A stretch of DNA of 64,000 bases from Ereboglobus luteus (GTDB lineage Bacteria; Verrucomicrobiota; Verrucomicrobiia; Opitutales; Opitutaceae): positions 37,299 through 101,298 of the forward strand of contig NZ_CP023004.1 of assembly GCF_003096195.1 (NCBI RefSeq), given 5' to 3'. The translations under genes and the position numbers were made by a program. Under the pieces are notes generated by a model that was not told the DNA's origin, searched no databases, and saw nothing but the letters and a program-made list of their open reading frames with translations. Of the stretch, positions 4,124 through 55,688 are shown piece after piece; within the stretch, counting starts at the first letter, position 1, and the number at the start of each line of letters is the position of its first letter.

Positions 4124-4303
4124 TCGACGTGTTCTAAAAAACTCAAAAACACACAACTCCGTTTCAGGCGGACGGTTGGCGGACTGTCACTGTCGCGCGT
4201 CCGCCACCCAGCATTGGTTTACGCAATCCGATCGTGGTAATCCCCTGCCCCGTCAAATCATGTAAAAAATCTCCGTCACTTTTTTATCGGACTTGCGTCT
4301 TTT

Positions 4304-4338
4304 GCAATGCGACCGGCATTTTCAGCCGGTCGCATTGT
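4304..4338. promoter_or_regulatory. Perfect 12-bp inverted repeat CAATGCGACCGG-N11-CCGGTCGCATTG ~70 nt upstream of macA; candidate operator or terminator.
   Basis: Sequence symmetry only. Confidence 0.25.
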
Positions 4339-4407
4339 TTAACGACAGCCCGCATCACCACTTTCCCTCACCTAAAAAACACGCACGCACCACGCGCTTT
4401 TTCAAAC

Positions 4408-5835: not shown

Positions 5836-5852
5836 CCGCCGCCATCGCGGCG

Positions 5853-5968
5853 GAAGTTGGAAGAGTGAAGGGTGAAAACATGAAAGACAAACCATCCCAA
5901 CCATCAACCGCCACACCACGCCAAAGCCCGTTTTTCACTCTTCACCCTTCACGCTTCACTCTTCTTCC
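5853..5968. repeat. Palindromic element, same subfamily (core AACATGAAAGACAAACCATCCCAACCATCAACC), filling the macA-ATPase intergenic space; the right arm ends 3 nt before the ATPase ATG.
   Basis: Arms GGAAGTTGGAAGAGTGAAGGGTGAAAACA / TTTTTCACTCTTCACCCTTCACGCTTCACTCTTCTTCC; the core is homologous to the 2944-3057 core. Confidence 0.7.
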
Positions 5969-5971
5969 TCC

Positions 5972-6739
5972 ATGCAACCCGTTGTAAAACTCATCGACAT
6001 CCGCAAGACCTACACCACCGGCGAAATCGCGGTCCACGCCGTGCGCGGGGTCACGCTCGACATTTACCCGGGGGAATTCGTCGCGCTCATGGGCGCGTCC
6101 GGCTCCGGCAAGTCGACCCTCATGAACACGCTCGGCTGCCTCGACCGCCCCACCTCGGGCGAGTATTACCTCGACGGCGTCAATGTCGCCAACCTTGACC
6201 GCGACGACCGGGCCGACATCCGCAATCACAAACTCGGTTTCGTATTCCAAGGCTTCAACCTCCTCGCCCGCACCAGCGCCGTCGAAAACGTCGAACTGCC
6301 CATGCTCTACCAGCGCAACCGCACCTCGTCGAAGGAGATGCGCCAGCGCGCCATGGAGGCGCTCGAAATCGTCGGCCTCGCCCAGCGCGCCGACCATCAT
6401 CCCAGCCAGCTCTCCGGCGGCCAGCAGCAGCGCGTCGCCATCGCGCGCGCCCTCGTCAACCGCCCCCAAGTCATCCTCGCCGACGAACCCACCGGCAACC
6501 TCGACACCAAAACCTCCGTCGAAGTCATGGGCGTTTTTCAAAAACTCAACGATCAGGGCATCACGATCCTCATGGTCACGCACGAACTCGACATCGCGCG
6601 TTACTGCAAACGCAACCTCATCCTCCGCGACGGCAAACTCGTCAGCGACGTCCAAGTCGAGACCCGCATGAATTCCGAAGCCGAGCTCCGCAAACTCGCC
6701 GAAGCCGAGGCACAGGCGAAACTGACGGGAGATGAATGA
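5972..6739 (+). CDS. MacB/LolD-type ABC transporter ATP-binding protein.
   Basis: Walker [10 protein letters not shown], signature [15 protein letters not shown], Walker [13 protein letters not shown]-loop. Confidence 0.85.
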
Positions 6740-6796: not shown

Positions 6797-8005
6797 ATGA
6801 GAATTTTCAGCACCATCGTCATCGCCCTCCGCGCGCTTCGGCGCAACCTCATGCGTTCCATGCTCACCGCGCTCGGCATGATCATCGGCGTCGGCGCCGT
6901 CATCACCGTCGTCGCCATGGGCAGCGGCACCAAGGCGCAAGTCGAGGCGCAAATCGCCGGCCTCGGTGACAACCTCATCACGGTCATCCCCGGCGTTCTC
7001 ACCACCGGCGGCGTGCGCGGCGGATGGAACACCGCGAGCTCCCTCACCATCGAGGACACCATCGCCATCAAGCAGGAAATCGCCGGCGTCACCGGCACCA
7101 GCCCCGAAACCCGCGACCGCGTGCAAGTCATCGCCGGCGGCCTCAACTGGAACACCTCCGCGCAAGGCGTCTCCGCCGACTATGCCGCCATTCGCTCCTG
7201 GTCCGTCGCGGAAGGCGATTTTTTCAGCGAGCAGGATTTGCGCACCAACGCCAAGGTCTGCGTCATTGGCAAGACCGTCGCCGACCAGCTTTACCCCGGG
7301 CTCGATCCCGTCGGTCAAAACATCCGCGCACGCAACATCCCGCTGCGCATCGTCGGCGTCATGGCAAGCAAGGGCTTCAACGCCTACGGCCAGGATCAGG
7401 ACGACTTCATCATGGTCCCCTACACCACCGCGATGAAACGCATCATCCGCCGCGACCGCATAAACCAAATCATGATTCAGGCCGCCAGCGCCGACATCCT
7501 CGACCGCGTGCAAGCCGAGGTCGGCGACCTCCTCCAACAACGCCGCGGCGGGCGCGACCCCGATTACACCGTTCGCAACCAGGAGGAAATTGCCAAGGCC
7601 CGCAACGCCACCAACGAATCCCTCTCGTGGCTGCTCACCGGCATCGCGCTCGTCTCGCTCCTCGTCGGCGGCATCGGCATCATGAACATCATGCTCGTCT
7701 CCGTGACCGAGCGCACCCGCGAAATCGGCATCCGCCTCGCCATCGGCGCGCATGGCAAGGACGTGCTCCTGCAATTCCTCACCGAGGCGATCGTGCTGAG
7801 CGTGCTCGGCGGCGGCATCGGCATCGCCTGCGGCATCGGCGCATCGCAATTCCTCGCACACTACAAGGGCTGGCTCATGGTGATCCCGACCGAATGGGTG
7901 GCGTTCTCCTTCCTCATCAGCGCGGGCGTCGGCATTGCATTCGGATTTTTCCCCGCCATGAAAGCCGCCCAGCTCGACCCCATCGACGCGCTTCGTTACG
8001 AGTGA
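6797..8005 (+). CDS. ABC transporter permease, FtsX/MacB type (N-terminal TM, periplasmic domain, 3 C-terminal TMs).
   Basis: MacB_PCD-like periplasmic region, FtsX C-terminal motif (ERTREIGIRLAIGA), operon context with adaptor and ATPase. Confidence 0.8.
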   Translation: MRIFSTIVIALRALRRNLMRSMLTALGMIIGVGAVITVVAMGSGTKAQVEAQIAGLGDNLITVIPGVLTTGGVRGGWNTASSLTIEDTIAIKQEIAGVTGTSPETRDRVQVIAGGLNWNTSAQGVSADYAAIRSWSVAEGDFFSEQDLRTNAKVCVIGKTVADQLYPGLDPVGQNIRARNIPLRIVGVMASKGFNAYGQDQDDFIMVPYTTAMKRIIRRDRINQIMIQAASADILDRVQAEVGDLLQQRRGGRDPDYTVRNQEEIAKARNATNESLSWLLTGIALVSLLVGGIGIMNIMLVSVTERTREIGIRLAIGAHGKDVLLQFLTEAIVLSVLGGGIGIACGIGASQFLAHYKGWLMVIPTEWVAFSFLISAGVGIAFGFFPAMKAAQLDPIDALRYE

Positions 8006-8007
8006 CC

Positions 8008-8134
8008 TGATTGTGGATTTTGGATTTTAAAAACCCGCGCGAGCTGGTTTGATCCGAGCTTCGTCATGCTTTTTTCATCGCATCGGCGCGGCAGCGCCCC
8101 AATCCAAAATCGAGAACCCAAAATCCCAAATTCA
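8008..8134. repeat. Palindromic element (GGATTTT/CCAAAAT heptad arms) occupying the whole permease-oxidoreductase intergenic region; the right arm ends at the ATG.
   Basis: CTGATTGTGGATTTTGGATTTTAAAAACCC ... CCAATCCAAAATCGAGAACCCAAAATCCCAAATTCA|ATG; the right arm is ~85% identical to the arm preceding the pnp ATG (49291-49328, minus strand). Confidence 0.65.
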
Positions 8135-12265: not shown

Positions 12266-12325
12266 GGTAGGGCGAACCGTCTCGGTGAGCCGAAAATATT
12301 GCGACTCACCGAGACGGTTCGCCCC
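12266..12325. repeat. REP-like hairpin, GGTAGGGCGAACCGTCTCGGTGAGCCG..CGACTCACCGAGACGGTTCGCCCC (~22-bp stem), downstream of the ThuA-HEAT gene.
   Basis: One of three copies with conserved ends GGTAGGGCGAA / TTCGCCC. Confidence 0.6.
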
Positions 12326-18629: not shown

Positions 18630-18696
18630 GGTAGGGCGAACCGTCACGGTGAGCCGCAGCAACACACCCGGCTCACCGTGACGGTTCGCCCCTATC
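18630..18696. repeat. REP-like hairpin, GGTAGGGCGAACCGTCACGGTGAGCCG-loop-CGGCTCACCGTGACGGTTCGCCCC (perfect 23-bp stem), between the convergent trxA and coaD.
   Basis: Differs from copy 12266 by a compensated T/A to A/T pair in the stem. Confidence 0.6.
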
Positions 18697-39013: not shown

Positions 39014-39900
39014 GCGAAATCCCGGGCCCAATCGACGACTACTGGCAAACACTCCCCCTCGGGCGCGGCGTGGCCGTCATCACCCGCGATCCCAACGGCC
39101 TCGTCGCCCTCAACAAACCCGCGGGCACCCTCTCCCACCCCAACGAATCCCGCGACCAGCCCCGTTCGCTCCTCAACGCCCCCTATGAACCCGACGGCGA
39201 ATATTATATGTGGAATGCGGAATGCGGAATGCGGATTTCGGAATTGCAAACCGACAAAACTGATCATGCCACTCGCCCGCCGCCTGCGTCCGATCATTCC
39301 GCATTCCAAAATCCGCATTCCACATTCAAAGAGGAATCCCGCCGACTCTGGCTGCTCAACCGCCTTGATTCCGCCACCTCCGGCGTGATCCTTGCCGCGA
39401 CCACGGAAGAACTCGCGCGCGAAATCCGCGCGCTCTTTCGCGAACGCCACATCAGCAAAACCTACGCCGCGCTCGTCTTCGGCAGCCCCTCCGAAAAAAC
39501 GCAACTCTGGCGCGACCGGCTCGCCGTGCAAAAACGCGGAGGCCAAATCCGCGCCGCCGCCCGGGCCGGAAACATCCCCGCCGAGGCGCGCATGAGCCTT
39601 CTGCGCACCAGCCGCAACACCCCCGCCGCAGCAGGCGCACCCATTTCGCTCATCCAGCTCGAACCCAAGACCGGACGCAGCCACCAGCTCCGGGTGCAAT
39701 GCGCCAGGCGCCGTCTTCCCATCATCGGCGACGCCACTTACGGCGATTTTCGAGCCAACCGCGACTTCGCCAAACGCACACGCGAAAAACGCCTATTTCT
39801 CCATTCGCTCGAAACCCGCTTCGACTACACCCACGCCGGACGCGCGTTCACCTTCGCCGCCAAGGCTGACCTCCCTGGGGCGTTCACCGCGCATCTTTGA
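39010..39900 (+). CDS. RluA-family pseudouridine synthase (GTG start overlapping the upstream stop, GTGA) carrying an in-frame palindromic-element insertion (39207-39333).
   Basis: LNKPAGTLSHP..RLDSATSGVILAA..catalytic Asp in LNRLD; PsiRSP-like C-terminus. Inserted ~42 aa (YYMWNAECGMRISELQTDKTD..HSTFKEES) lies in the loop before the HRLD motif. Confidence 0.8.
   Translation: MSEIPGPIDDYWQTLPLGRGVAVITRDPNGLVALNKPAGTLSHPNESRDQPRSLLNAPYEPDGEYYMWNAECGMRISELQTDKTDHATRPPPASDHSAFQNPHSTFKEESRRLWLLNRLDSATSGVILAATTEELAREIRALFRERHISKTYAALVFGSPSEKTQLWRDRLAVQKRGGQIRAAARAGNIPAEARMSLLRTSRNTPAAAGAPISLIQLEPKTGRSHQLRVQCARRRLPIIGDATYGDFRANRDFAKRTREKRLFLHSLETRFDYTHAGRAFTFAAKADLPGAFTAHL
39207..39333. repeat. Palindromic element (GGAATGC heptad arms; core ..CACTCGCCCGCCGCCTGCGTCCGATC) inserted in-frame in the RluA-family gene.
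   Basis: TGGAATGCGGAATGCGGAATGCGGATTTCGGAATTGCAAA ... ATTCCGCATTCCAAAATCCGCATTCCACATTCAAAG; the core shares CGCCTGCGTCCGAT with element 2944-3057. Confidence 0.7.
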
Positions 39901-40294: not shown

Positions 40295-40681
40295 ATGGCT
40301 CGTGTCAAAAACTCCCCCGCGTCGCGCAAGCGCCGCAAGAACATGCTGAAGCATGCCAAAGGCTACTTCGGCAACAAATCGAAGCTCTATCGCTACGCGA
40401 AAGAAGCCGTCCATCACGCCTGGCAATACGCCTACCGTGACCGCCGCAAAAAGAAGGCCGAGTTCCGCGCCCTCTGGATCGTGCGCATCAGCGCCGCCTG
40501 CCGCGAGGCCGGCATCAGCTACAACCGCTTCATCGAAGGTCTCAACGCCGCCGGCGTCGCCCTCGATCGCAAGGTCCTCTCCGACCTCGCAATCCGCGAC
40601 GAAGCGGCCTTTACCGCCCTGGTCAAACAAGCCCAGGACGCGTTGAAGAAAAAAGCCGAGGCCAAAAAGGCCGCGGCCTAA
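40295..40681 (+). CDS. rplT: 50S ribosomal protein L20.
   Basis: MARVKNSPASRKRRKNMLKHAKGYFG..YRDRRKKK. Confidence 0.95.
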   Translation: MARVKNSPASRKRRKNMLKHAKGYFGNKSKLYRYAKEAVHHAWQYAYRDRRKKKAEFRALWIVRISAACREAGISYNRFIEGLNAAGVALDRKVLSDLAIRDEAAFTALVKQAQDALKKKAEAKKAAA

Positions 40682-40733: not shown

Positions 40734-40779
40734 AGAGGACGGGCCTCGTTCGAGCGAGGTGCCGTCCTCTTTGCTTTTG
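40734..40779 (+). terminator. Rho-independent terminator after rplT, immediately upstream of the inserted GxxExxY cassette.
   Basis: AGAGGACGG..CCGTCCTCT followed by TTGCTTTTG. Confidence 0.75.
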
Positions 40780-40792
40780 AAACATTCCTCTT

Positions 40793-41229
40793 GGGACAGA
40801 ATGAACAAAATTAAAAAAATGGGAGAGACTCCAAGCTACGATTTGGCCGGCCAAATCATAGGGCTCGCCATGAAAGTTCATTCAACGCTCGGCGGCGGAT
40901 TTCTCGAATCTGTTTATCAAAACGCGCTCGCCTTTGAACTGACTCGAGCAGGCATGGCTTTCCAAACAAGCGTCCCCCTCAAGGTGAAATACGAAGGCGC
41001 AATTGTCGGTGAGTTCGAAGCCGACATGCTCATCGCCAATACGCTCATTATCGAAAACAAAGCCGTCCAAACCCTCGCCGTCGCCCATGAGGTTCAACTT
41101 GTCAATTATCTTACCGCCACCGGCATCAACGAAGGACTTCTTCTCAATTTCGGCGCGGAAAAACTCCAGTTCAAAAAGAAATTCCGCACATACCGGGCCG
41201 CCGGCCCCAATTGATCTTCATTCTGTTCC
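40793..41229 (+). mobile_element. GxxExxY gene cassette bounded by 12-bp inverted repeats (GGGACAGAATGA ... TCATTCTGTTCC, 11/12 match), inserted between rplT and pheS.
   Basis: The IR-L includes the gene's ATG; it lies downstream of the rplT terminator and upstream of the pheS start. Confidence 0.4.
40801..41214 (+). CDS. GxxExxY family protein (PD-(D/E)XK superfamily) inserted between rplT and pheS.
   Basis: GGGFLESVYQNAL (GxxExxY), E..D..K core ..EFEADMLIANTLIIENK; homologous to the 53343-53726 gene. Confidence 0.75.
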   Translation: MNKIKKMGETPSYDLAGQIIGLAMKVHSTLGGGFLESVYQNALAFELTRAGMAFQTSVPLKVKYEGAIVGEFEADMLIANTLIIENKAVQTLAVAHEVQLVNYLTATGINEGLLLNFGAEKLQFKKKFRTYRAAGPN

Positions 41230-41271
41230 ATTCCGTTAATTCTGTCTAAAAACACTTCCCAAAATTTCCAC

Positions 41272-42315
41272 ATGCAAGACCAACTCAAAGCCCTGCTCGA
41301 CAAAGCCCGCACCGAACTCTCCGCGACAAAGATCCGCGCCGACTTCGAGGCCGCGAAAGCCCGTTACGTCGGCCCCAACGGCTCGCTCACCGCGTTCATG
41401 AAACAAATGGGCAGCCTGCCCAAGGAGCAAAAACCCATCGTCGGCAAGCTCATCAACGAGGCCAAGACCACCCTCACCGGCCTCCTCGAAAACGCGCTCC
41501 GCGCCATCGAGTCCAACGAGCTCGCCGCGCAACTCGGCCCCGAAATCGACCCCACCCTCCCCTCGCCCGACGCCCTCGCCGGCACCTATCATCCCCTCAC
41601 GCTCGTGCGCGAGGAAATGTGCCGCATCCTCGCAAAGGCCGGGTTCAACGTCGTCGAGGGTCCCGAGGTCGAAACCGAATTCTACTGCTTCGACGCGCTC
41701 AACACACCCGCCGACCATCCGGCCCGCAACGAGCAGGACACGTTCTATTTCCCCGCCGCCACGCGCTTCGGCAACGTCTCGCGCAAGGTCGCCGACGAAA
41801 AATACCTCCTCCGCACGCACACCTCCTCCGTGCAAATCCGCACGATGCTCAAGGGCCCGCCGCCCATCCGCATCGTCTCGCCCGGGCGCGTTTACCGTCG
41901 CGACACCACCGACGCCACGCACTCCGCCAACTTTCACCAACTCGAGTGCCTCTACGTCGACAAAAACGTCACCGTTCGCGACCTCAAGGCGCTCCTCGAT
42001 TACATCTTCGCCTCGCTCCTCGGCAAGGACACCAAGACCCGTTTCCGCCCGCACTATTTCGGCTACACCGAGCCCAGTTTCGAAGTCGATCTCAGCGCAA
42101 GGCACCTCCCCAAGGTGAACAAGGAATGGATCGAAATCGGCGGCTGCGGCATGGTCGATCCGACCGTCTTCGACGCCGTCGGCTACGACTCAAGCGTCTG
42201 GACCGGCTACGCCTTCGGCATGGGCCTCGAACGCCTCGCCATGCTCCTCTACGGCATCGACGACATCCGCTACTTCTACCAAAACGACCTGCGCTTCCTC
42301 AGGCAATTCGCCTGA
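41272..42315 (+). CDS. pheS: Phenylalanine--tRNA ligase alpha subunit.
   Basis: Class II aaRS motifs (FNVVEGPEVE..FDALN, RTHTSSVQIR, GMGLERLAML). Confidence 0.95.
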   Translation: MQDQLKALLDKARTELSATKIRADFEAAKARYVGPNGSLTAFMKQMGSLPKEQKPIVGKLINEAKTTLTGLLENALRAIESNELAAQLGPEIDPTLPSPDALAGTYHPLTLVREEMCRILAKAGFNVVEGPEVETEFYCFDALNTPADHPARNEQDTFYFPAATRFGNVSRKVADEKYLLRTHTSSVQIRTMLKGPPPIRIVSPGRVYRRDTTDATHSANFHQLECLYVDKNVTVRDLKALLDYIFASLLGKDTKTRFRPHYFGYTEPSFEVDLSARHLPKVNKEWIEIGGCGMVDPTVFDAVGYDSSVWTGYAFGMGLERLAMLLYGIDDIRYFYQNDLRFLRQFA

Positions 42316-42320
42316 CGGAA

Positions 42321-42497
42321 AGCAGTGAGCGGCGGGTAGCGAGTAGTGAGTAGAAAAAATCACCGCTCGCCCCGCTCGCAACCAACCTTAAAAATTTTCA
42401 CAACCATCACACCATCCTCCCACCACCATGCGGGCGCAGCCCGCCACTGACATCCTACTCGCTACCCGCTACTCACTACTCGCTACTTTTTCTTCCT
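42321..42497. repeat. Palindromic element (AGTGAGC/AGCGAGT/AGTGAGT heptad arms) filling the pheS-pheT intergenic region; the right arm ends 3 nt before the pheT ATG.
   Basis: GCAGTGAGCGGCGGGTAGCGAGTAGTGAGTAGAAAAAA ... CTACTCGCTACCCGCTACTCACTACTCGCTACTTTTTCTTCC. Confidence 0.65.
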
Positions 42498-49290: not shown

Positions 49291-49482
49291 GTTCGTATTT
49301 TGGATTTTGTATTCTCGATTTTGGATTGATGAACCACGGAAGATAATTCGAGAGGGTATTGATGGTTTCCGGGTTTTGTTTTTTAACCGCGAATGGACGC
49401 TAAAGGACGCGAATAAATACAAATGAAACACGGGTCGAAAATCGGCCTGTTATTCGCGTCTATTCGCGTTCGTTCGCGGTTC
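49291..49482. repeat. Composite element in the rpsO-pnp intergenic/pnp leader: CCAAAAT-heptad arm abutting the pnp ATG (49291-49328), plus a palindrome with CGCGAAT-type arms and core AAATGAAACACGGG (49387-49482).
   Basis: CCGCGAATGGACGCTAAAGGACGCGAATAAATAC-AAATGAAACAC..-TTATTCGCGTCTATTCGCGTTCGTTCGCGGTTC; both arm types are also found in the uvrA linker 2152-2278. Confidence 0.55.
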
Positions 49483-49694
49483 TAAATCTCTGACTGGTTT
49501 TTATTATGGGCAAAAACTCGCGGACAATGGTGTTCGCGTTGCTTTTGCCGGGAGGTGTCTTTTTTGCATCCTCGTTCAGTGTTCGAGAGATTTCCGTTTG
49601 GCGCCTGCGCTGTTTTTTGCGGCGGAAGAGACAAGCGGAAATGTCCCGGAATCTGTGGCGAGTGTCGTTGGCTGCGCGGGGCAGTTAAGACAAC

Positions 49695-50384: not shown

Positions 50385-51821
50385 TCACTTTGCGATCAGC
50401 TTTATCAGCGCGGCGCGGTCGGTTTTGCCGCGCTGGGTGAGCGGGAATGCCGGCAGCACAACAATGCGGTCGGGGATTTTCCACGCGGCGAGACGCGGGG
50501 TGAGCTGGCGGCGGATGTCGGCGGCGGTCGGCGAGGGCGCGTCGCTGGCGACGGCGGCGGCGATGGCGTCGGGGCGCGTTGGATGCGCGGCGACAAAGGC
50601 TTCGCGCACACCGGGCAGGGCGCGGAGCATCGTTTCCACTTCGCCGGGGTCGAGACGGCGGCCCGCGATTTTCAGCGTGCGTCCGGCACGGCCAAGCAGG
50701 GTGAGTTCGCCGGCAGGGTTGAATTCACCGCGATCGGGCGGCGAATAGCGTCCGCGTCCGTGGACAGAGGGGCTTTCGACGGTGAAGCGTTTGCCGCGGC
50801 GGAAGGTGATGCGCACGCCGTCGATGAGTTGCCCGATGGCGCGGCCAGTTTCCGCGGCGTCGCCTTTGCGGTCGTAGGCGATGCCGCCGGTTTCGCTGGT
50901 GCCGTAGAAATTGTGGACGTGTTTGCCGTATTTGTTTGCGAAAGCGAGCGCGTCGGCGGGCTGGAGCGGCGCGCCGGCGGAAATGACGAGGCGCAGGCTG
51001 GCGAGCGCGGCGGGCGAAACGTCGGTGCTTGAGAGCGCGCGCAGGAGCGTGGGCACGGCGGGAAAAACGGTCGGTTTCCAACGGGCGCAATCGGCGGCGA
51101 TGGATTGCGGAAACGGGCTGGCGGCGCTGAGGAGGGGCGTGCCTTGTTCGAGGAGCGGAATGACGAGGTGGCCGAGTCCGTAGGAGTGCCCGAAGGGGAT
51201 GATGCCAAGGTTGAGGTCGCCGGGGCTGATGCGCATGGTTGCGCAAATCTGGCGTCCGTCGGCGAGCATTTGCGTGTGGGTGAAAACGAGCGCCTTGGGA
51301 ACGCCGGTGCTGCCGCTGGTGAGTTTGATGAGCAATTCGTCGCGGCGTCGAACGGGCGGGCGAGGCGCGAGCAGGGTGAGTTCACCGTCGCGCAAGATCG
51401 AGGCAGCGCGGCTGACGTCGGCAATGGCGGCAAGGCGGTCGGGTGTTTCCTTGGAGTCGGCGAGCGCGGGGACAGCACCGATTTCGAGCAGACCGAGGAA
51501 GATGTAAAACCAGCGCGCGCTGTTCGGCTCGGCCATGACCACGCGGCGACGCGTGATGTGCGCGCGGGTGTCGGTGGGAAGTGAATCGAGCCAGACACGT
51601 GCGGCGGCGGCGAGTTCAGCGCGACTCCAGACGCGCGCGGTGTCGCCGTCGATGACGGCGGTGGCGGATGGCGATTGCGCGACAAGTGCGCGCCAGGTGG
51701 CGAGGAGGTTTGTTGGGTAGGGCGAAACCTCCGGCTGAGCCGATTGCTTTTTCGCGTTCGGTGACAATTCCGGCTCAGCCGGAGGCTTCGCCCTACCTTT
51801 GGTATCGCCGACCGGAGCCAT
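50385..51821 (-). CDS. AMP-dependent synthetase/ligase (acyl-/aryl-CoA ligase family); start ATG overlaps the gatB stop (TAATG). Its 5' end contains a GGTAGGGCGAA-family hairpin in-frame.
   Basis: AMP-binding motifs LTSGSTGVPKA, YGTSETGG, ..GDxxxxxxDG..; 478 aa. Confidence 0.75.
   Translation of the reverse strand: MAPVGDTKGRAKPPAEPELSPNAKKQSAQPEVSPYPTNLLATWRALVAQSPSATAVIDGDTARVWSRAELAAAARVWLDSLPTDTRAHITRRRVVMAEPNSARWFYIFLGLLEIGAVPALADSKETPDRLAAIADVSRAASILRDGELTLLAPRPPVRRRDELLIKLTSGSTGVPKALVFTHTQMLADGRQICATMRISPGDLNLGIIPFGHSYGLGHLVIPLLEQGTPLLSAASPFPQSIAADCARWKPTVFPAVPTLLRALSSTDVSPAALASLRLVISAGAPLQPADALAFANKYGKHVHNFYGTSETGGIAYDRKGDAAETGRAIGQLIDGVRITFRRGKRFTVESPSVHGRGRYSPPDRGEFNPAGELTLLGRAGRTLKIAGRRLDPGEVETMLRALPGVREAFVAAHPTRPDAIAAAVASDAPSPTAADIRRQLTPRLAAWKIPDRIVVLPAFPLTQRGKTDRAALIKLIAK
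51715..51797. repeat. REP-like hairpin, variant GGGTAGGGCGAAACCTCCGGCTGAGCCG-loop-CGGCTCAGCCGGAGGCTTCGCCCTACC, lying within the 5' coding region of the AMP-ligase gene (translated in-frame).
   Basis: Same conserved termini as copies 12266 and 18630; the stem interior differs on both sides so pairing is kept. Confidence 0.6.
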
Positions 51822-53290
51822 TATTCTGCCAACAGACGGCGGAGGGTTTCATCAACTAACTTCGGGTTCGCTTTGCCTTTGCTGGCTTTCATTACGGGGC
51901 CTTTTAGGCCGTTGATGGCACTTTCCTTGCCGGCTCGGAATTCTTCGGCGGCTTTGGCGTTGGCGGCTATCGCGTCGCGGCACCATTGTTCGAGTTCGTT
52001 GGCGTCGGTCGGGACGGCTTTTAGGTTTTTGCGGTCGGCGATTGGCTCAGGGGCGTCGCCGGTGGCGAACATTTCGGCGAAGACTTCCTTGGCGGTGTTG
52101 GTTGTGAGCGTGCCGGCGGCGATGAGTTTAACGAGCGCGACGAGGTGCGCGGGCGGGATTTTTGCGACGGCTTCCTTGAAGGTGGCCTTGGTCGCGCCGA
52201 GTTCGCGGAGGAGGTCGTTGGTGATCCAGTTGCCGAGGGGTTGCGCGAGCGCGGGGGCGTCGGAGCCGGCGAGTTTCACGGCGGCGTCGTAGTAGTCGGC
52301 GAGGGGTTTGTCCCAGATGAGGACGGAGGTGATTGTGTAGGGGAGATTGTGGTCGGCCATGAGGCGGCGCTGTCGGTCGAAGGGGCGCTCGGGGAGCGTG
52401 GCGGCAAGGGAGTTTTTCCACTCGGCGCTGACGTGCACGGGCATGAGGTCGGGGTCGGGGAAGTAGCGGTAGTCGTGCGCGTCCTCCTTGGTGCGGAGCG
52501 ATTGCGAGACGCCGGTCAGTCCGTCGTAATCGCGGGTTTCCTGGACGACGGAGCCGCCTTTTTCAACGAGGGCGGTCTGGCGCTTGATTTCGTGCTCGAT
52601 GGCGTCGCGGACGTAGGAGATGGAGTTGAGGTTTTTCATCTCGACCTTGGTGCCGAGCGTGGTCGAGCCGACGGGGCGGATGGAGACGTTGGCGTCGCAG
52701 CGCATCTGGCCTTTTTCCATGTCGCAATCGGAGACGCCGCCTTGCTGCATCGTGGCGCGGAGGATGGTGAGGAACGCGGCGGCTTCGTCGCCGCTGGCGA
52801 GCGCGGGTTCGGTGACGAGTTCCATGAGCGGGGTGCCGGCGCGGTTGTAATCGACGAGCGACTCGGTAGCGAAGTGGTTGAGCTTGCCAACATCCTCCTC
52901 GAGGTGGATGCGGTTGAGCGGAATCGTCTTGTGCTCGCCCATGATGTTGCGCGCGGAGCCGGGGAGTTCGATTTCGACGGAGCCGCCGAGGCAGATGGGG
53001 GCGAACTGCTGTGTGAGCTGGTAGTTTTTGGGCGAGTCGGGGTAGAAGTAGTTTTTGCGGTCCCAACGGCATTCGTCGGCGATGCGGCAGTTGACGAGGA
53101 GGCCGGCGCGGATGATCTGGTCGATGGCGGCTTTGTTGAGCACGGGCAGCGCGCCGGGAAGCGCGAGGACAACCGGGTCGGTGAGCGTGTTGGGTTCGTG
53201 CCCGTAACCGGAGGCGGCACGGGTGAACATTTTTGTGCGGGTCTTGAGCTGGATGTGAACTTCAAGACCGATGACGGCTTCGTATTTCAT
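51821..53290 (-). CDS. gatB: Asp-tRNA(Asn)/Glu-tRNA(Gln) amidotransferase subunit B.
   Basis: MKYEAVIGLEVHIQL.., full-length GatB with C-terminal YqeY-like domain. Confidence 0.95.
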   Translation of the reverse strand: MKYEAVIGLEVHIQLKTRTKMFTRAASGYGHEPNTLTDPVVLALPGALPVLNKAAIDQIIRAGLLVNCRIADECRWDRKNYFYPDSPKNYQLTQQFAPICLGGSVEIELPGSARNIMGEHKTIPLNRIHLEEDVGKLNHFATESLVDYNRAGTPLMELVTEPALASGDEAAAFLTILRATMQQGGVSDCDMEKGQMRCDANVSIRPVGSTTLGTKVEMKNLNSISYVRDAIEHEIKRQTALVEKGGSVVQETRDYDGLTGVSQSLRTKEDAHDYRYFPDPDLMPVHVSAEWKNSLAATLPERPFDRQRRLMADHNLPYTITSVLIWDKPLADYYDAAVKLAGSDAPALAQPLGNWITNDLLRELGATKATFKEAVAKIPPAHLVALVKLIAAGTLTTNTAKEVFAEMFATGDAPEPIADRKNLKAVPTDANELEQWCRDAIAANAKAAEEFRAGKESAINGLKGPVMKASKGKANPKLVDETLRRLLAE

Positions 53291-53311
53291 TTTTTTGGAA
53301 AAATTCTTTTT

Positions 53312-53792
53312 TTAACCACGGAGGACACGGAGAGGCACGGAGTCAGAGGACTCTGCGAAATATGCCATCCTTGAGCAGGGGAACGTTGAAATTGATGAGG
53401 AAACCGATGCGGTGTCCGGAGAGTTTTAGGTAGGTGATGAGTTGCGCCTCGTGAACGTCGTGCAGTTCTTCCACCGCCTTGAGTTCAAGGATGACTTCGT
53501 TTTCCACTAGCAAATCCAAACGATAACCAACGTCGATGAGGGAACCCTTATAGTTCACGGGCACTTCTTTTTGGCGCTCATATTCCAGGCCCCTCAGTCC
53601 GAGCTCGAATGCGAGGGCGGCCTCATAGGTTGACTCAAGCAGTCCCGGCCCGAGCACCTTGTGCACCTCAATGGCCGCTCCGATAATTTTCTCTGTGAGT
53701 TCTTCCTGCAACAACGTGGTTTTCATTTGGAGGATTAAAATAAACCGGTCATCTCTGTATTCTCCGTGTTTCTCAGTGTTCTCCGTGGTTAA
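53312..53792 (-). mobile_element. GxxExxY cassette: 31-bp terminal inverted repeats TTAACCACGGAGGACACGGAGAGGCACGGAG / CTCCGTGTTTCTCAGTGTTCTCCGTGGTTAA flanking the GxxExxY gene; inserted in the gatA-gatB spacer.
   Basis: The TIRs abut the gene stop (53343) and lie 5 nt from the gatA stop and 21 nt from the gatB start; the TIRs contain a CACGGAG periodic repeat. Confidence 0.6.
53343..53726 (-). CDS. GxxExxY family protein (PD-(D/E)XK superfamily), inserted between gatA and gatB and bounded by 31-bp terminal inverted repeats.
   Basis: GPGLLESTYEAAL (GxxExxY); ..YRLDLLVENEVILELK core; 127 aa. Confidence 0.8.
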   Translation of the reverse strand: MKTTLLQEELTEKIIGAAIEVHKVLGPGLLESTYEAALAFELGLRGLEYERQKEVPVNYKGSLIDVGYRLDLLVENEVILELKAVEELHDVHEAQLITYLKLSGHRIGFLINFNVPLLKDGIFRRVL

Positions 53793-53796
53793 TAAA

Positions 53797-55251
53797 TCAG
53801 AGATTCGGCAGGTGCTTCGCCCAGTCGTGCGCGCTGTCGTAGGCGTGGGCGATTGAGAGCAACTCGGCTTCCTTGAAGGGCTGGCCGATGAGTTGCACGC
53901 CGATCGGGAGGCCGGTTTGCGTGAAGCCGCAGGGCATGCTCAGGCCGGGGAGTCCGGCCATGTTCACGCCGATGGTGTAGATGTCGCCGAGGTAGGCTTC
54001 GAGGGGCGTCTTGTGCGAGCCTTTGAGGAAGGCGGGCGTGGGCGAGGTGGGCGCGATGATGGCGTCAACTTGCTTGTAGGCGTCGATGAAATCCTGGCGG
54101 ATGAGCGTGCGGACTTTTTGCGCGCGCAAATAATAGGCGTCGTAATATCCGCTGCTGAGAACGTAGGTGCCGAGGATGATGCGGCGCTTGACTTCCTCGC
54201 CGAAACCTTCGGCGCGGGTTTTCGAGTAGATGTCAACGGCGTCGGTCGCGGCGGTCGAGCGGTGACCGTAGCGAATGCCATCGAAACGGGCCATGTTGGA
54301 GGAGCACTCGGCGGTCGCGACGATGTAGTAAACGGCGATGCCGTATTCGGTGTGCGGGAGCGAGACTTCGCGGATTTCGCAGCCTTGGTTTTTGTAGAAA
54401 TTGATCGCGGTTTGGACGGCGGCGGCGACTTCGGGGTCGAGTCCGTCGCCAAAATATTCCTTCGGGACGCCGAGCCGCCACGGGCCTTTTTTCTGGTGGA
54501 GCGCGGCGCGGTAGTCGGGGATTTCGGCGAGGATGGAAGTGGAGTCGAGCGGGTCGTGCCCGGCGATGGCGGAGAGCATGATGGCGGCGTCCTCGACAGT
54601 GCGGGCGATGGGGCCGACTTGGTCGAGCGAGGAGGCGTAGGCGGAGACGCCGTAGCGCGAGACGAGGCCGTAGGTGGGCTTGAGGCCGACGAGGTTGCAG
54701 AACGACGCGGGCTGGCGGATCGAGCCGCCGGTGTCAGTGCCGAGCGCGGCGGTGACTTCGCCCGCGGCGATGGCGGCGGCGCTTCCGCCGGAGGAGCCGC
54801 CCGCAACGCGCGCGAGGTCGTAGGGGTTGTTGGTGGGACCCATCGCGGAATTTTCGGTGGAGGAACCCATCGCAAATTCGTCGAGATTGAGGCGTCCCCA
54901 AAAGACGGCGCCGGCTTCGCGGAGCTTGCGCGTCACGGTGGCGTCGTAGGGCGAGATGTAATTGGCGAGCATCTTCGACGAGGCTGTGAGCGGCTGATCC
55001 TTTACGGAGATGATGTCCTTGAGGCCGACGGGAATGCCGTCGAGCGGGCCGAGCGTTTTGCCTGCGGCGCGGCGTTCGTCGGACGCGCGAGCTTGGGCGA
55101 GCGCGGCGGCTTCGTCGAAGGAATTGAACGCGCCGACGCGGGAATCAACGGCCTTGGTGCGGTCGATGCAGGCTTGGAGGAGTTCGACGGCGGAGATCGC
55201 GCGGGAGTCGAGTTGCGAGGAGACTTGGGTGAGCGGGAGGTTGATTGGCAT
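53797..55251 (-). CDS. gatA: Glutamyl-tRNA(Gln) amidotransferase subunit A (amidase signature).
   Basis: GGSSGGSAAAIAAG amidase signature, 484 aa. Confidence 0.95.
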   Translation of the reverse strand: MPINLPLTQVSSQLDSRAISAVELLQACIDRTKAVDSRVGAFNSFDEAAALAQARASDERRAAGKTLGPLDGIPVGLKDIISVKDQPLTASSKMLANYISPYDATVTRKLREAGAVFWGRLNLDEFAMGSSTENSAMGPTNNPYDLARVAGGSSGGSAAAIAAGEVTAALGTDTGGSIRQPASFCNLVGLKPTYGLVSRYGVSAYASSLDQVGPIARTVEDAAIMLSAIAGHDPLDSTSILAEIPDYRAALHQKKGPWRLGVPKEYFGDGLDPEVAAAVQTAINFYKNQGCEIREVSLPHTEYGIAVYYIVATAECSSNMARFDGIRYGHRSTAATDAVDIYSKTRAEGFGEEVKRRIILGTYVLSSGYYDAYYLRAQKVRTLIRQDFIDAYKQVDAIIAPTSPTPAFLKGSHKTPLEAYLGDIYTIGVNMAGLPGLSMPCGFTQTGLPIGVQLIGQPFKEAELLSIAHAYDSAHDWAKHLPNL

Positions 55252-55286
55252 CGGAAACAGGAGAGGGATTCGGGCGGTTGTTTTAA

Positions 55287-55380
55287 TTAACCACGGAGGA
55301 CACGGAGAGCGCGGAGGGACGGAAGAAGATGAGTTTGGAGTTTTGTTTTTCTCCGGGAACTCCGTGTTCTCCGTGGTTAA
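55287..55380. repeat. Solo 94-bp palindrome with the same TIRs as the GxxExxY cassette (TTAACCACGGAGGACACGGAGAGCGCGGAG ... CTCCGGGAACTCCGTGTTCTCCGTGGTTAA) but no ORF; sits in the gatC-gatA spacer.
   Basis: ~90% identity of both ends to 53312-53342 and 53762-53792. Confidence 0.7.
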
Positions 55381-55394
55381 TCTTTCTGAGTGAG

Positions 55395-55688
55395 TTATTC
55401 GACGACCTTGGGCACACTGATCATATTGTCGCGCTGGGCGGGGGCGTTGCGGAGGGCTTCGTCGGCGGTGAAGCCGGGCGTGACGTTGTCCTCGGCCCAG
55501 ACGTTGGAAATGGGGAAGCCGTGCGCGGTCGGCTCGATGCCGGTGATGTCAACGCGCTTGAGCTGATCGACGTATTTGAGGACGTCGCCGAGCTGCGCGG
55601 CGAACTTCTCCTTTTCGTCGGGCGCGAGGTCGATGCGCGCGAGCGAGGCGAGTTTTTCGATGTCGAGATTTGGTGATGTGGCGGCCAT
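55395..55688 (-). CDS. gatC: Glutamyl-tRNA(Gln) amidotransferase subunit C.
   Basis: IEKLASLARIDL..EKFAAQLGDVLKYVDQL. Confidence 0.85.
   Translation of the reverse strand: MAATSPNLDIEKLASLARIDLAPDEKEKFAAQLGDVLKYVDQLKRVDITGIEPTAHGFPISNVWAEDNVTPGFTADEALRNAPAQRDNMISVPKVVE

What the first reader, a model, noticed from the sequence alone, without database searches (positions are those of the whole stretch)
53312..53792. GxxExxY (PD-(D/E)XK) gene flanked by 31-bp terminal inverted repeats, inserted inside the gatCAB operon
A 481-bp unit sits in the gatA-gatB spacer: TIR-L TTAACCACGGAGGACACGGAGAGGCACGGAG, then a 127-aa GxxExxY-family gene, then TIR-R CTCCGTGTTTCTCAGTGTTCTCCGTGGTTAA. It lies 5 nt from the gatA stop and 21 nt from the gatB start. 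GxxExxY proteins are best known from hairpin-flanked intervening sequences in 23S rRNA genes. The same IR-ORF-IR logic inside a protein-coding operon supports these being autonomous mobile or selfish cassettes. The nuclease-fold protein would then be the mobilising or homing factor.
Basis: partly seen in the sequence, partly recalled or inferred. Interest (0 to 1): 0.8.

Follow-up and report, generated by a model that had tools for sequence, protein, structure and literature searches.

The report
Hairpin-boxed nuclease gene inside gatCAB operon
A small nuclease gene boxed in by a long hairpin sits between two essential genes of Ereboglobus luteus; it has the same build as the intervening sequences that RNase III cuts out of 23S rRNA, and such cassettes turn out to be scattered through operons of many bacterial phyla.

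Summary
A 127-aa GxxExxY gene (PF13366, TIGR04256) lies between gatA and gatB, co-oriented with them and enclosed by 31-nt inverted arms. Each arm is three tandem CACGGAG units after TTAAC.

The termini are not unique. An ORF-less 94-bp hairpin with the same ends fills the gatC-gatA spacer. The terminus occurs in at least 120 genomic stretches from more than 10 phyla.

A second GxxExxY cassette, with ACAGAAT-unit arms, lies between rplT and pheS in the same window.

Among GatB relatives the gatA-gatB spacer is empty, holds an ORF-less hairpin, holds a GxxExxY cassette, or holds a cassette with the PF05635 "23S rRNA intervening-sequence protein". The published Coxiella 23S IVS has the same build, with tandem heptamers abutting the ATG and RNase III cutting the stem.

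My reading: this is an IVS-type hairpin cassette living in an mRNA spacer. It rides on operon transcription and is probably processed by RNase III. At this locus it is old, vertically inherited and under purifying selection (dN/dS 0.15). It is gained, lost, moved and decayed over evolutionary time.

Nothing tested here shows that the nuclease mobilises it, and the non-nuclease cargo weakens that idea. I found no published description. I rate it a new variant of a known kind.

The parts
53762..53792 (-). 5' arm in the sense (minus-strand) orientation: TTAAC + CACGGAG-AA-CACTGAG-AAA-CACGGAG. It starts 4 nt after the gatA stop codon.
53727..53761 (-). Leader between the 5' arm and the ATG. It includes a degenerate fourth unit (TACAGAG). 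In relatives L126 and L196 this leader is absent and the arm abuts the ATG.
   Evidence: (D1)
53343..53726 (-). GxxExxY protein gene, 127 aa. It is a minimal Cas4/RecB-like PD-(D/E)XK nuclease core with E31, D71, E81 and K83 invariant.
53312..53342 (-). 3' arm in the sense orientation: CTCCGTG-CCT-CTCCGTG-TC-CTCCGTG + GTTAA. It starts directly after the TGA stop and ends 21 nt before the gatB ATG.
55287..55380 (-). ORF-less sibling hairpin with the same termini, filling the gatC-gatA spacer. In the sister strain PH5-5 this spacer holds a different hairpin built of TCGAAAA-type units.
51821..55688 (-). Host operon gatC (55395-55688), gatA (53797-55251), gatB (51821-53290). No promoter-like site, and no terminator-like site on the coding strand, was found between gatC and gatB.
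40793..41246 (+). Second cassette of the same build, between rplT (40295-40681) and pheS (41272-42315). The 5' arm GGGACAGAATGAACAAAATTAA is at 40793-40814. The GxxExxY ORF is 40819-41214 (131 aa, PF13366 4e-37). The 3' arm TTCATTCTGTTCCATTCCGTTAATTCTGTC is at 41217-41246.
42321..42480 (+). ORF-less hairpin just after pheS (in the pheS-pheT position of relatives). Its GTAGCGA/GTGAGTA-unit arms are the type that flanks PF05635 cassettes in relatives (L142, L223).
   Evidence: (I17)

Best explanation
What it is. This is an IVS-type hairpin cassette: the same element architecture as the intervening sequences of 23S rRNA, but lodged in an intercistronic spacer of an mRNA operon. It carries a GxxExxY (Cas4/RecB-like PD-(D/E)XK) gene instead of the four-helix-bundle IVS protein.

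Shown here.
- The gene has no promoter-like site of its own, is co-oriented with gatCAB and fills the gatA-gatB spacer.
- Its two arms are tandem heptamer arrays that can pair into a stem of about 26-29 bp.
- Pairing between arms is kept through compensatory changes across cassette lineages.
- The protein is under purifying selection.
- The cassette at this site is old and was inherited vertically in Ereboglobus.
- Across relatives, cassettes of this build are gained, lost, replaced, moved to other spacers and operons, and decay to ORF-less hairpins.

Inferred by analogy with the experimentally studied Coxiella IVS.
- In the gatCAB transcript the stem is a double-stranded RNA substrate for RNase III.
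- Cleavage would separate the gatA and gatB messages and release the GxxExxY message.
- The element therefore rides at low cost on a constitutively transcribed essential operon, as IVSs ride on rRNA.

Speculative. Spread happens at the DNA level by copying the cassette into spacers or pre-existing hairpins, with the arms serving as recognition or homology sequences. Whether the encoded nuclease takes part is unknown.
For: Anatomy.

Same build as a characterised IVS: PMC4990558 reports three tandem GACAGAT heptamers before the ATG, copy number varying between strains, the ORF sense to the rRNA, and RNase III cutting in the IR stem.

Same spacer, alternative cargos. GxxExxY cassettes are in L196, L126, L136, L137, L139, L161, L178 and L216. 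PF05635 cassettes are in L142/L143 (5e-34) and L154 (2.5e-21). In each the arm abuts the ATG and the stop codon.

Both cargos in adjacent spacers of one operon: L223 reads rplT|GxxExxY|pheS|PF05635|pheT.

Arms pair by covariation: 16 of 24 predicted pairs show double compensatory changes. Stems have 19-42 pairs.

Turnover.
- Distribution is patchy on the GatB tree.
- L156 retains a GxxExxY C-terminal remnant, 19/21 residues, E = 5e-10.
- The same ACAGAAT cassette lies in rplT-pheS in Horticoccus but in pheS-pheT in Termitidicoccus.
- CACGGAG-armed GxxExxY cassettes occur in a cytochrome operon, after radA in Bacteroides, and between fabD and fabG in Sphingomonas.
- The gatC-gatA hairpin differs between two strains whose flanking genes are 96.5-98% identical in nucleotides (gatA, gatB and gatC).

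No promoter-like site, and no coding-strand terminator-like site, inside the operon.
Against: - There are no RNA data, so RNase III cleavage here is only an analogy.
- The G.U versus A.C strand test shows no bias toward the sense transcript: 7 cassettes favour sense and 7 favour antisense. A DNA-level hairpin is therefore not excluded.
- The stem has 2-3-nt internal mismatches at each inter-unit spacer, which could alter or block RNase III cutting.
- The element is not in an rRNA gene, and its ORF is not PF05635, so it fails two classical IVS criteria.
- No target-site duplication or clean empty-versus-filled pair could be defined, so the insertion mechanism is unknown.
- The cross-phylum conservation of the heptamer sequence is not explained by RNase III, which is not sequence-specific.
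Confidence: 0.6

Rival explanations
1. Autonomous homing or transposing element. The GxxExxY nuclease recognises its own arms, or a cruciform or hairpin they form, and cuts there. The cassette is then copied into the break by recombinational repair, with the arms serving as both recognition site and homology.
For: - Invariant PD-(D/E)XK catalytic residues and purifying selection.
- Cargo family and arm unit type go together. GxxExxY goes with CACGGAG, CACAGAG, CGCAGAG, CGCGAAG or ACAGAAT. PF05635 goes with GTAGCGA, GAGTGAG or GACAAGGAGAC.
- ORF-less hairpins with identical arms exist in the same genome and could serve as targets.
- The same cassette occupies different spacers, operons and phyla.
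Against: - Cassettes of the same build carry a non-nuclease four-helix-bundle protein, so a nuclease is not needed for this element type.
- Arm-cargo association is expected from simple linkage if arms and ORF move together.
- The gat cassette is ancient and vertical.
- No TSD and no recent insertion of an ORF-bearing copy was seen.
- It is essentially absent from phages (0 of 50,697 records) and viral contigs (1 hit), and rare on plasmids (8 records).
Confidence: 0.25
2. The tandem-unit hairpins are the mobile or expanding unit, in the manner of REP, MITE or Correia elements. An unlinked host or element enzyme moves them. The small ORFs are cargo that became trapped in a loop or between two hairpins.
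For: - ORF-less hairpins far outnumber ORF-bearing ones: about 85 of 95 paired CACGGAG elements are under 320 bp.
- The window alone has at least 9 tandem-unit hairpins of several unit types, including some in frame inside a coding region.
- In Geminisphaera/TAV strains the ORF lies between two complete hairpins rather than in one loop.
- The recent change between the two Ereboglobus strains concerns an ORF-less hairpin.
- Loops and inter-unit spacers vary freely while the arms are kept.
Against: - At least one ORF-less hairpin is a deletion derivative of an ORF cassette, so the direction can be ORF-bearing to ORF-less.
- No candidate transposase was identified.
- The tight abutment of the arms to the start and stop codons in many independent cassettes suggests arms and ORF form one designed unit.
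Confidence: 0.25
3. Domesticated operon feature. The hairpin is a host-selected processing or stability signal that sets gatA:gatB expression. GxxExxY is a host-beneficial housekeeping nuclease that is simply inherited with the operon.
For: - Vertical inheritance with conserved arms across relatives whose GatB is only 75-77% identical.
- Purifying selection on the protein.
- Location in essential, translation-related operons (gatCAB, rpmI-rplT-pheST).
Against: - Many close relatives have an empty 0-40-nt spacer, a different hairpin or a different cargo at the same place. The feature is therefore dispensable and interchangeable.
- The same cassette sits in unrelated operons in other phyla.
Confidence: 0.15
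4. A chance inverted repeat, or an ordinary intrinsic terminator, around an unrelated small gene.
For: None beyond the general frequency of hairpins in intergenic DNA.
Against: - 4 termini against 0.17 expected.
- The fold z-score is -7.8 for the sibling hairpin.
- At least 120 genomic stretches carry the same 19 specified bases.
- There is no T-tract terminator on the coding strand.
Confidence: 0.01

Closest known systems
23S rRNA intervening sequences (IVS) with an ORF, e.g. Coxiella burnetii helix-45 IVS encoding S23p (PF05635); also Leptospira, Brucella and Xanthomonas (PMC4990558)
   Same: - A long stem made by inverted repeats encloses a roughly 120-aa ORF that is sense to the host transcript.
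- The 5' arm is made of tandem heptamer repeats directly upstream of the ATG, with variable copy number.
- There is no own promoter.
- Distribution is sporadic, pointing to horizontal spread.
- ORF-less or decaying versions exist.
- PF05635 cassettes occupy the very same gatA-gatB and pheS-pheT spacers in relatives.
   Different: - The host is an mRNA operon spacer, not an rRNA helix.
- The cargo is a PD-(D/E)XK nuclease, not the four-helix-bundle protein.
- The protein here is under purifying selection, whereas the Coxiella ORF is reported as decaying.
- RNase III excision has not been shown here.
REP/REPIN elements with RAYT (own knowledge: Nunvar 2010; Bertels and Rainey 2011)
   Same: - A single-copy gene is flanked by inverted copies of a short palindromic repeat that also occurs many times without the gene.
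- The location is intergenic, often within operons.
   Different: - RAYTs are HUH Y1 transposases; GxxExxY is PD-(D/E)XK.
- REPs are species-specific, whereas these termini recur across phyla.
- The arms here are arrays of tandem 9-10-nt units.
Correia/NEMIS elements of Neisseria (own knowledge: De Gregorio et al. 2002-2003)
   Same: - Short hairpin-forming repeats with TIRs are co-transcribed with neighbouring genes.
- Their stems in mRNA are cut by RNase III, which changes transcript stability.
   Different: - Correia elements are non-coding MITEs of one genus, with a TA duplication.
- There is no enclosed protein gene and no tandem-unit arms.
Homing endonuclease genes inside self-splicing introns, including the PD-(D/E)XK enzyme I-Ssp6803I (own knowledge)
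   Same: - A small nuclease gene is nested in an RNA element that makes insertion into an essential transcript harmless.
- The same site is occupied or empty in different lineages.
   Different: - There is no intron or ribozyme, and Rfam finds nothing.
- The flanking messages would be cut, not religated.
- The same site hosts unrelated cassette types.
- Homing activity has not been shown.
Cas4 / RecB-family nucleases (SSO0001, PDB 4ic1)
   Different: - GxxExxY is about 125 aa and matches only about 94 residues of the 202-residue Cas4 chain.
- There is no CRISPR context.
- Sequence similarity is marginal (PADLOC Cas4 E = 0.02).

Membership tests
GxxExxY protein family (NCBIfam TIGR04256 / Pfam PF13366 PDDEXK_3) | Score above the curated HMM cut-offs | tested here: met
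   TIGR04256 scores 154.6 bits against a cut-off of 35. PF13366 scores 149.3 bits against a cut-off of 22.
GxxExxY protein family (NCBIfam TIGR04256 / Pfam PF13366 PDDEXK_3) | GxxExxY motif and PD-(D/E)XK catalytic residues | tested here: met
   G28-LL-E31-ST-Y34, D71, E81 and K83 are invariant in a 48-sequence alignment.
GxxExxY protein family (NCBIfam TIGR04256 / Pfam PF13366 PDDEXK_3) | Restriction-endonuclease-like alpha/beta fold | tested here: met
23S rRNA intervening sequence (IVS) | Inserted in a helix of a 23S (or 16S) rRNA gene | tested here: not met
   It lies between gatA and gatB. Rfam finds no rRNA in the window. rRNA-motif checks on the loci held at that point (about 120) gave only three lone weak single-motif matches, judged spurious.
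23S rRNA intervening sequence (IVS) | Long stem formed by terminal inverted repeats enclosing the insert | tested here: met
23S rRNA intervening sequence (IVS) | Tandem heptamer repeats in the 5' arm next to the ORF start, with the ORF sense to the host transcript (as described for Coxiella) | tested here: met
   Three CACGGAG units here. The arm abuts the ATG in L126, L196, L178 and L161. Compare PMC4990558.
23S rRNA intervening sequence (IVS) | ORF of the PF05635 (23S_rRNA_IVP / S23p) family | tested here: not met
   Only PF13366 is matched here. PF05635 is present in cassettes at the same spacer in L142/L143 and L154, and in L223.
23S rRNA intervening sequence (IVS) | Excised from the transcript by RNase III without religation | not testable with these tools
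   This needs RNA end mapping or an in vitro cleavage assay.
TIR DNA transposon / MITE | Terminal inverted repeats | tested here: met
TIR DNA transposon / MITE | Target-site duplication at the ends | tested here: inconclusive
   The ends read TTAA...TTAA, but this is part of the palindrome. No alignable empty-versus-filled pair was found. Whole spacers differ between strains.
TIR DNA transposon / MITE | Encoded transposase of a known class (DDE, HUH, serine or tyrosine) | tested here: not met
   The only ORF is a 127-aa PD-(D/E)XK core.
TIR DNA transposon / MITE | Many copies similar over their whole length | tested here: not met
   Only the arms are shared. Loops and inter-unit spacers differ between copies. 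Only 1 of 104 ORF-less hairpins keeps an ORF remnant.
REP/RAYT (REPIN) system | HUH Y1 transposase gene flanked by inverted REPs | tested here: not met
   The gene is PF13366, not a Y1 transposase. Only the flanking-repeat logic is analogous.
Homing endonuclease in a self-splicing intron | Embedded in a group I or group II intron or an intein | tested here: not met
   No Rfam family is matched at gathering or E-value thresholds, apart from spurious miRNA-hairpin hits.
Homing endonuclease in a self-splicing intron | Same site occupied or empty in related lineages, with element phylogeny incongruent with the host | tested here: inconclusive
   Occupied and empty states are patchy. GxxExxY identities mostly track GatB identities, with exceptions: L161 versus L178, and the TAV copy in a DGR locus.
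Integron gene cassette (attC) | ORF followed by a single attC hairpin, in an array next to intI | tested here: not met
   The ORF lies inside the hairpin loop and no integrase is nearby. The context is a housekeeping operon.

The most novel reading that the evidence does not exclude
IVS-type hairpin cassettes are one pan-bacterial class of transposase-less selfish element.

They colonise any constitutively transcribed DNA: rRNA helices, operon spacers and even coding regions in frame. Two large protein families of unknown function, GxxExxY (PF13366/TIGR04256) and the 23S IVS protein (PF05635), are their dedicated cargo.

Each cargo protein would act on its own tandem-heptamer arms. For GxxExxY that means cutting hairpin or cruciform DNA, so that the cassette is copied into empty hairpins. 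RNase III excision at the RNA level would keep the host genes working.
Probability: 0.3. Interest if true: 0.9.

Novelty: new variant of a known kind. Interest (0 to 1): 0.7.

Why it matters
IVSs have been treated as a curiosity of rRNA genes. PF05635 and GxxExxY are two very large protein families without a known function. GxxExxY alone has 24,587 cluster representatives at 50% identity.

Both proteins are interchangeable cargos of one hairpin architecture. That architecture sits in operon spacers of Verrucomicrobiota, Bacteroidota, Alphaproteobacteria, Spirochaetota, Planctomycetota, Acidobacteriota and others. This gives both families a common context and concrete experiments: RNase III mapping, and nuclease or binding assays on the arms.

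There are three further consequences.
- It explains a class of spurious low-complexity ORFs and C-terminal extensions in annotations, for example the Sphingomonas gene that reads through its 3' arm.
- It suggests that essential operons are punctuated by selfish processing sites.
- It offers a cultured model, Ereboglobus luteus.

Tried and rejected
- Rfam at E-value and gathering thresholds gave only spurious miRNA-precursor hairpin matches and one tRNA.
- A PDB sequence search found no relative. PHROGs gave none, and PADLOC gave only a marginal Cas4 match at E = 0.02.
- The G.U versus A.C strand-asymmetry test was meant to decide between a sense-RNA and a DNA hairpin. A first pass with 70-nt flanks suggested an antisense bias. 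With the arms alone it vanished, 7 against 7, so the test is inconclusive.
- A target-site duplication could not be defined. Spacers of relatives are not alignable, and between the two Ereboglobus strains the whole gatC-gatA spacer is replaced flush with the stop and start codons.
- A literature search by sequence strings returned only primers. Searches for GxxExxY, PDDEXK_3, PF05635, TIGR codes and 'IVS-like' found no functional study and no description of such cassettes outside rRNA.
- rRNA motif scans of the loci held at that point (about 120) gave only three lone weak single-motif matches, judged spurious. I therefore could not confirm that GxxExxY genes occur in 23S IVSs.
- Exact-sequence look-ups of the two window proteins failed, although P0121 is 100% identical to the second one.
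- An integron attC cassette was rejected: the ORF is inside the loop and there is no integrase. A terminator was rejected: no T-tract on the coding strand.
- My early impression that the 5' arm is always purine-rich does not hold. The TCGATTTTGG-type hairpins contradict it.
Full report
**1. The observation**

The sequence is as described. On the minus strand the order is gatC (55395-55688), gatA (53797-55251), a 127-aa ORF (53343-53726) and gatB (51821-53290).

- Pfam gives GatC, Amidase and GatB_N/GatB_Yqey for the three gat genes, and PF13366 (PDDEXK_3, 7e-44) for the small ORF.
- NCBIfam gives TIGR04256 'GxxExxY protein' at 1e-45.
- The two 31-nt repeats are at 53312-53342 and 53762-53792. 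The repeat finder extends them to 35 nt at 86% complementarity.
- Read in the sense of the operon, the 5' arm is TTAAC-CACGGAG-AA-CACTGAG-AAA-CACGGAG. The 3' arm is CTCCGTG-CCT-CTCCGTG-TC-CTCCGTG-GTTAA. Each arm is therefore three tandem heptamers.
The other arm ends 21 nt before the gatB ATG.
- TTAACCACGGAG occurs four times in the window against 0.17 expected.
- The arms form a long-range stem in the predicted fold of the transcript.

**2. What else is in the window**

The other two termini bound a 94-bp ORF-less hairpin that fills the gatC-gatA spacer (55287-55380). It folds at -44.6 kcal/mol, z = -7.8.

A second GxxExxY gene lies between rplT and pheS (40819-41214, plus strand, PF13366 4e-37). 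It is again co-oriented with its neighbours and enclosed by arms of another unit type, ACAGAAT/ATTCTGT.

The window holds at least nine further hairpins whose arms are tandem 8-10-nt units of various sequences. One lies just after pheS (42321-42480). Several lie in frame inside a UvrA-like ABC-ATPase ORF.

No promoter-like site, and no coding-strand terminator-like site, lies between gatC and gatB. Rfam knows none of these hairpins.

**3. Source and close relatives**

The second GxxExxY protein is 100% identical to one from Ereboglobus luteus on a 4,175,033-bp contig.

The gat-located protein is 94% identical to one from Ereboglobus sp. PH5-5. There the cassette, arms included, sits in the same spacer.

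Between the two strains the values are as follows:

| Gene | dS | dN/dS |
|---|---|---|
| GxxExxY | 0.19 | 0.15 |
| gatA | 0.10 | 0.03 |
| gatB | 0.15 | 0.03 |

The cassette was therefore inherited with the operon, and the protein is under purifying selection.

In contrast, the gatC-gatA spacer is wholly different in PH5-5. It holds a hairpin of TCGAAAA-type units, and the difference begins right after the stop codon and ends right before the ATG. Hairpins of that other type exist elsewhere in the window.

**4. The terminus across bacteria**

They come from Verrucomicrobiota, Planctomycetota, Bacteroidota, Spirochaetota, Gamma- and Betaproteobacteria, Acidobacteriota, Chlamydiota, Cyanobacteria, Chloroflexota, Actinomycetota, Nitrospirota and others, often with several per genome.

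Pairing the termini gave 95 elements. Most are 60-260 bp ORF-less hairpins with conserved heptamers but free inter-unit spacers and loops. Loops long enough for a gene carried GxxExxY proteins in an acidobacterium (L010), a planctomycete (L021), a verrucomicrobium (L072, truncated copy) and two further loci (L097, L111).

**5. The gatA-gatB spacer in relatives**

Eighty metagenomic loci encoding GatB relatives (46-77% identity) were fetched. The spacer falls into four states:

- Empty, 0-40 nt, in many loci.
- ORF-less tandem-unit hairpins of many unit types: GTAGTTGGT, CACAGAA, CACGAAA, GTGGGGA, CGCAGAG and others.
- GxxExxY cassettes. The arms are CACGGAG in L196, L126, L136 and L216; CACAGAG in L137 and L139; CGCAAAG in L161; and CGCAGAG in L178.

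In the ORF-bearing cassettes shown the ORF is co-oriented with the operon, and in most of them the 5' arm abuts the ATG. In each the 3' arm begins within about 12 nt of the stop codon.

On a GatB tree these states are interleaved. One tight clade contains a GxxExxY cassette (L178), an empty spacer (L164) and several different hairpins. It also contains L156, an ORF-less hairpin that still encodes the last 21 residues of the L178-type protein (19/21 identical, E = 5e-10). That is a direct example of decay from a cassette to an ORF-less hairpin.

GxxExxY identities among gat-located copies mostly follow GatB identities. This fits an old insertion with losses and replacements. There are exceptions. 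L161 and L178 share 79% GatB identity (over the only 77 residues of L161's GatB that could be read) but only 50% GxxExxY identity, with different arms. A 71%-identical copy in Geminisphaera/TAV strains lies in a DGR locus, between two complete CACGGAG hairpins.

**6. Other operons and phyla**

| Host | Arrangement | Arm type |
|---|---|---|
| Relative P0114 | cytochrome b, GxxExxY, multihaem cytochrome | CACGGAG |
| Horticoccus | rplT, GxxExxY, pheS | ACAGAAT |
| Termitidicoccus mucosus | pheS, GxxExxY, pheT | ACAGAAT |
| Uncultured lineage (L223) | rplT, GxxExxY, pheS, PF05635, pheT | ACAGAAT, and GAGTGAG/GAGCGAG for the PF05635 cassette |
| Bacteroides finegoldii | radA, GxxExxY, FAD-dependent protein | CACAGAG/CACGGAG |
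| Bernardetia | ade, GxxExxY, mannose-1-P guanylyltransferase | CACAGAG |
| Sphingomonas parapaucimobilis | fabD, GxxExxY, fabG | CGCGAAG |

- The PF05635 arms in L223 are related to the window's ORF-less hairpin after pheS.
- In Sphingomonas the annotated protein reads through its 3' arm.
- The Bacteroides, Bernardetia and Sphingomonas examples were chosen by protein similarity only, from cultured isolates. This rules out an assembly artefact.
- The family is essentially absent from viruses: 1 hit in 2.9 million viral contigs and none in 50,697 phage records. It is rare on plasmids, with 8 records, mostly megaplasmids.
- It is very large, with 24,587 cluster representatives at 50% identity.

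**7. The protein**

An AlphaFold model is confident (pLDDT 94.1). The best structural matches are:

- The BpuSI and Dna2 nuclease domains.
- Lambda-exonuclease-like enzymes.

E31, D71, E81 and K83 are invariant. It is therefore a minimal, probably active, RecB/Cas4-like PD-(D/E)XK nuclease. No paper in the searchable library addresses its function.

**8. Comparison with known IVSs**

The Coxiella burnetii IVS paper (PMC4990558) describes:

- an ORF (S23p, PF05635 family) in the loop of a stem formed by inverted repeats;
- three tandem heptamers (GACAGAT) immediately upstream of the ATG, with two or three copies depending on the strain;
- the ORF sense to the rRNA transcript;
- RNase III cutting within the stem.

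That is the architecture found here. The differences are the host transcript (mRNA spacer rather than rRNA helix) and the cargo family.

A survey of rRNA insertions in CPR bacteria lists PF05635, but no PD-(D/E)XK family, among insert-encoded domains (PMC11270868). What the data show instead is that GxxExxY and PF05635 are alternative cargos of the same cassette type.

**9. Mechanism**

Shown:
- The arms co-vary so as to keep pairing. 16 of 24 pairs show double compensatory changes across 14 cassettes and hairpins.
- Stems have 19-42 pairs.

Inferred: in the gatCAB transcript the stem is an RNase III substrate. Cutting would separate gatA and gatB and free the GxxExxY message. The insertion is thus tolerated in an essential operon.

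Not resolved:
- Whether the structure matters as sense RNA or as DNA. The G.U/A.C test shows no strand bias.
- What keeps the heptamer sequence itself conserved across phyla.
- How copies spread.

Cargo family and unit type go together in every case seen, but linkage alone would produce that. A non-nuclease cargo in the same build argues that the nuclease is not the general engine of mobility.

**10. Verdict**

The element is best filed as an IVS-type hairpin cassette in an mRNA spacer, a new variant of a known kind. It is old and vertically inherited at this locus, yet part of a widespread and dynamic class. I found no published description of it.

Noticed in passing
window 915-1046, 2940-3068, 3455-3562 (and the perfect palindrome at 2901-2945): Tandem-unit hairpins (CCAGAG-type and GGGTGAA-type) lie inside long UvrA-like ABC-ATPase ORFs (30-2924 and 2831-4123). 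They are read through in frame as low-complexity linkers, reminiscent of Rickettsia palindromic elements. The two ORFs overlap in different frames around a perfect 22+22-nt palindrome.
   Followed up: partly
window 5843-5974, about 8010-8125, 39199-39327, 49380-49486: More tandem-unit hairpins of other unit types. One lies in the spacer between a 533-aa ORF (4234-5835) and an ABC-ATPase-like ORF (5972-6739), which I read as an efflux pair without a domain check. One lies just after the next ORF (6797-8005). One is a GAATGCG-type upstream of the rplT cluster. One is a TTAACCGCGAAT-type that shares the TTAACC end with the CACGGAG family.
   Followed up: partly
window 12270-12324, 18634-18691, 51716-51797: A different class of near-perfect palindromes (GGGCGAA(A/C)C...GGTGAGCCG type, no tandem units). 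The third lies directly after gatB, inside the called N-terminus of the AMP-binding ORF (50385-51821). The Pfam domain of that ORF starts only at residue 47, so its start codon may be mis-called.
   Followed up: partly
L121:2342-2478 (Ereboglobus sp. PH5-5) versus window 55252-55394: The gatC-gatA spacer holds a completely different hairpin (TTTTCGATT/AATCGAAAA units) in the sister strain. Non-homology runs flush from the stop codon to the start codon, while the flanking codons are nearly identical.
   Followed up: yes
L123-L125:3390-4060 (Geminisphaera colitermitum / Opitutaceae TAV strains): A GxxExxY gene sits between two complete, nearly identical CACGGAG hairpins. It lies inside a diversity-generating retroelement locus, between the FGE-sulfatase-fold target gene and bAvd-RT. 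bAvd is weakly matched (E = 0.003, below cut-off) by one PF05635 cargo, so a link between these cassettes and reverse transcriptases may be worth a look.
   Followed up: partly
L027:5637-6701 (Chitinophagaceae MAG): A tandem array of about a dozen 49-bp mini-hairpins (TTAACCACAGAG...CTCCGTGGTT) lies next to a GxxExxY gene. It looks like cassette arms amplified head to tail.
   Followed up: no
L159:2106-2418: A CGCAGAT-armed hairpin in the gatA-gatB spacer carries a 47-aa ORF (MNTTQFLVMQEALEDYEDLKALREAKAEAVAEG...) with no Pfam match. It may be a third kind of cargo.
   Followed up: partly
L232:589-1017 (Sphingomonas parapaucimobilis, fabD-fabG): The RefSeq GxxExxY CDS is extended by about 17 residues because it reads through its own 3' arm (…PIASSRLRVNQRIGG*). 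Arms translated as low-complexity N- or C-terminal tails (MNHGDTE…, MSHREHRGDTE…) recur in gene calls for L136, L137 and L139.
   Followed up: partly
window 40735-40775 and the same position in L220, L221 and L223: A conserved GC-rich stem-loop followed by a T-run (GAGGACGGGCC...GGTGCCGTCCTCTTT) lies after rplT in all four genera. It is terminator- or attenuator-like. The GxxExxY cassette is inserted downstream of it.
   Followed up: no
one search hit list (P0241-P0258 and others): The best-scoring cluster representatives are 240-295-aa proteins with two GxxExxY stretches. These are tandem duplications, or fusions of two adjacent cassettes.
   Followed up: no
L233 (Fusobacteria ZRK30) and L234 (Prevotella nigrescens): Here the GxxExxY gene is flanked by direct, not inverted, copies of a repeat-bearing segment. 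This suggests serial cassettes or a hairpin-ORF-hairpin arrangement rather than a single enclosing stem.
   Followed up: no
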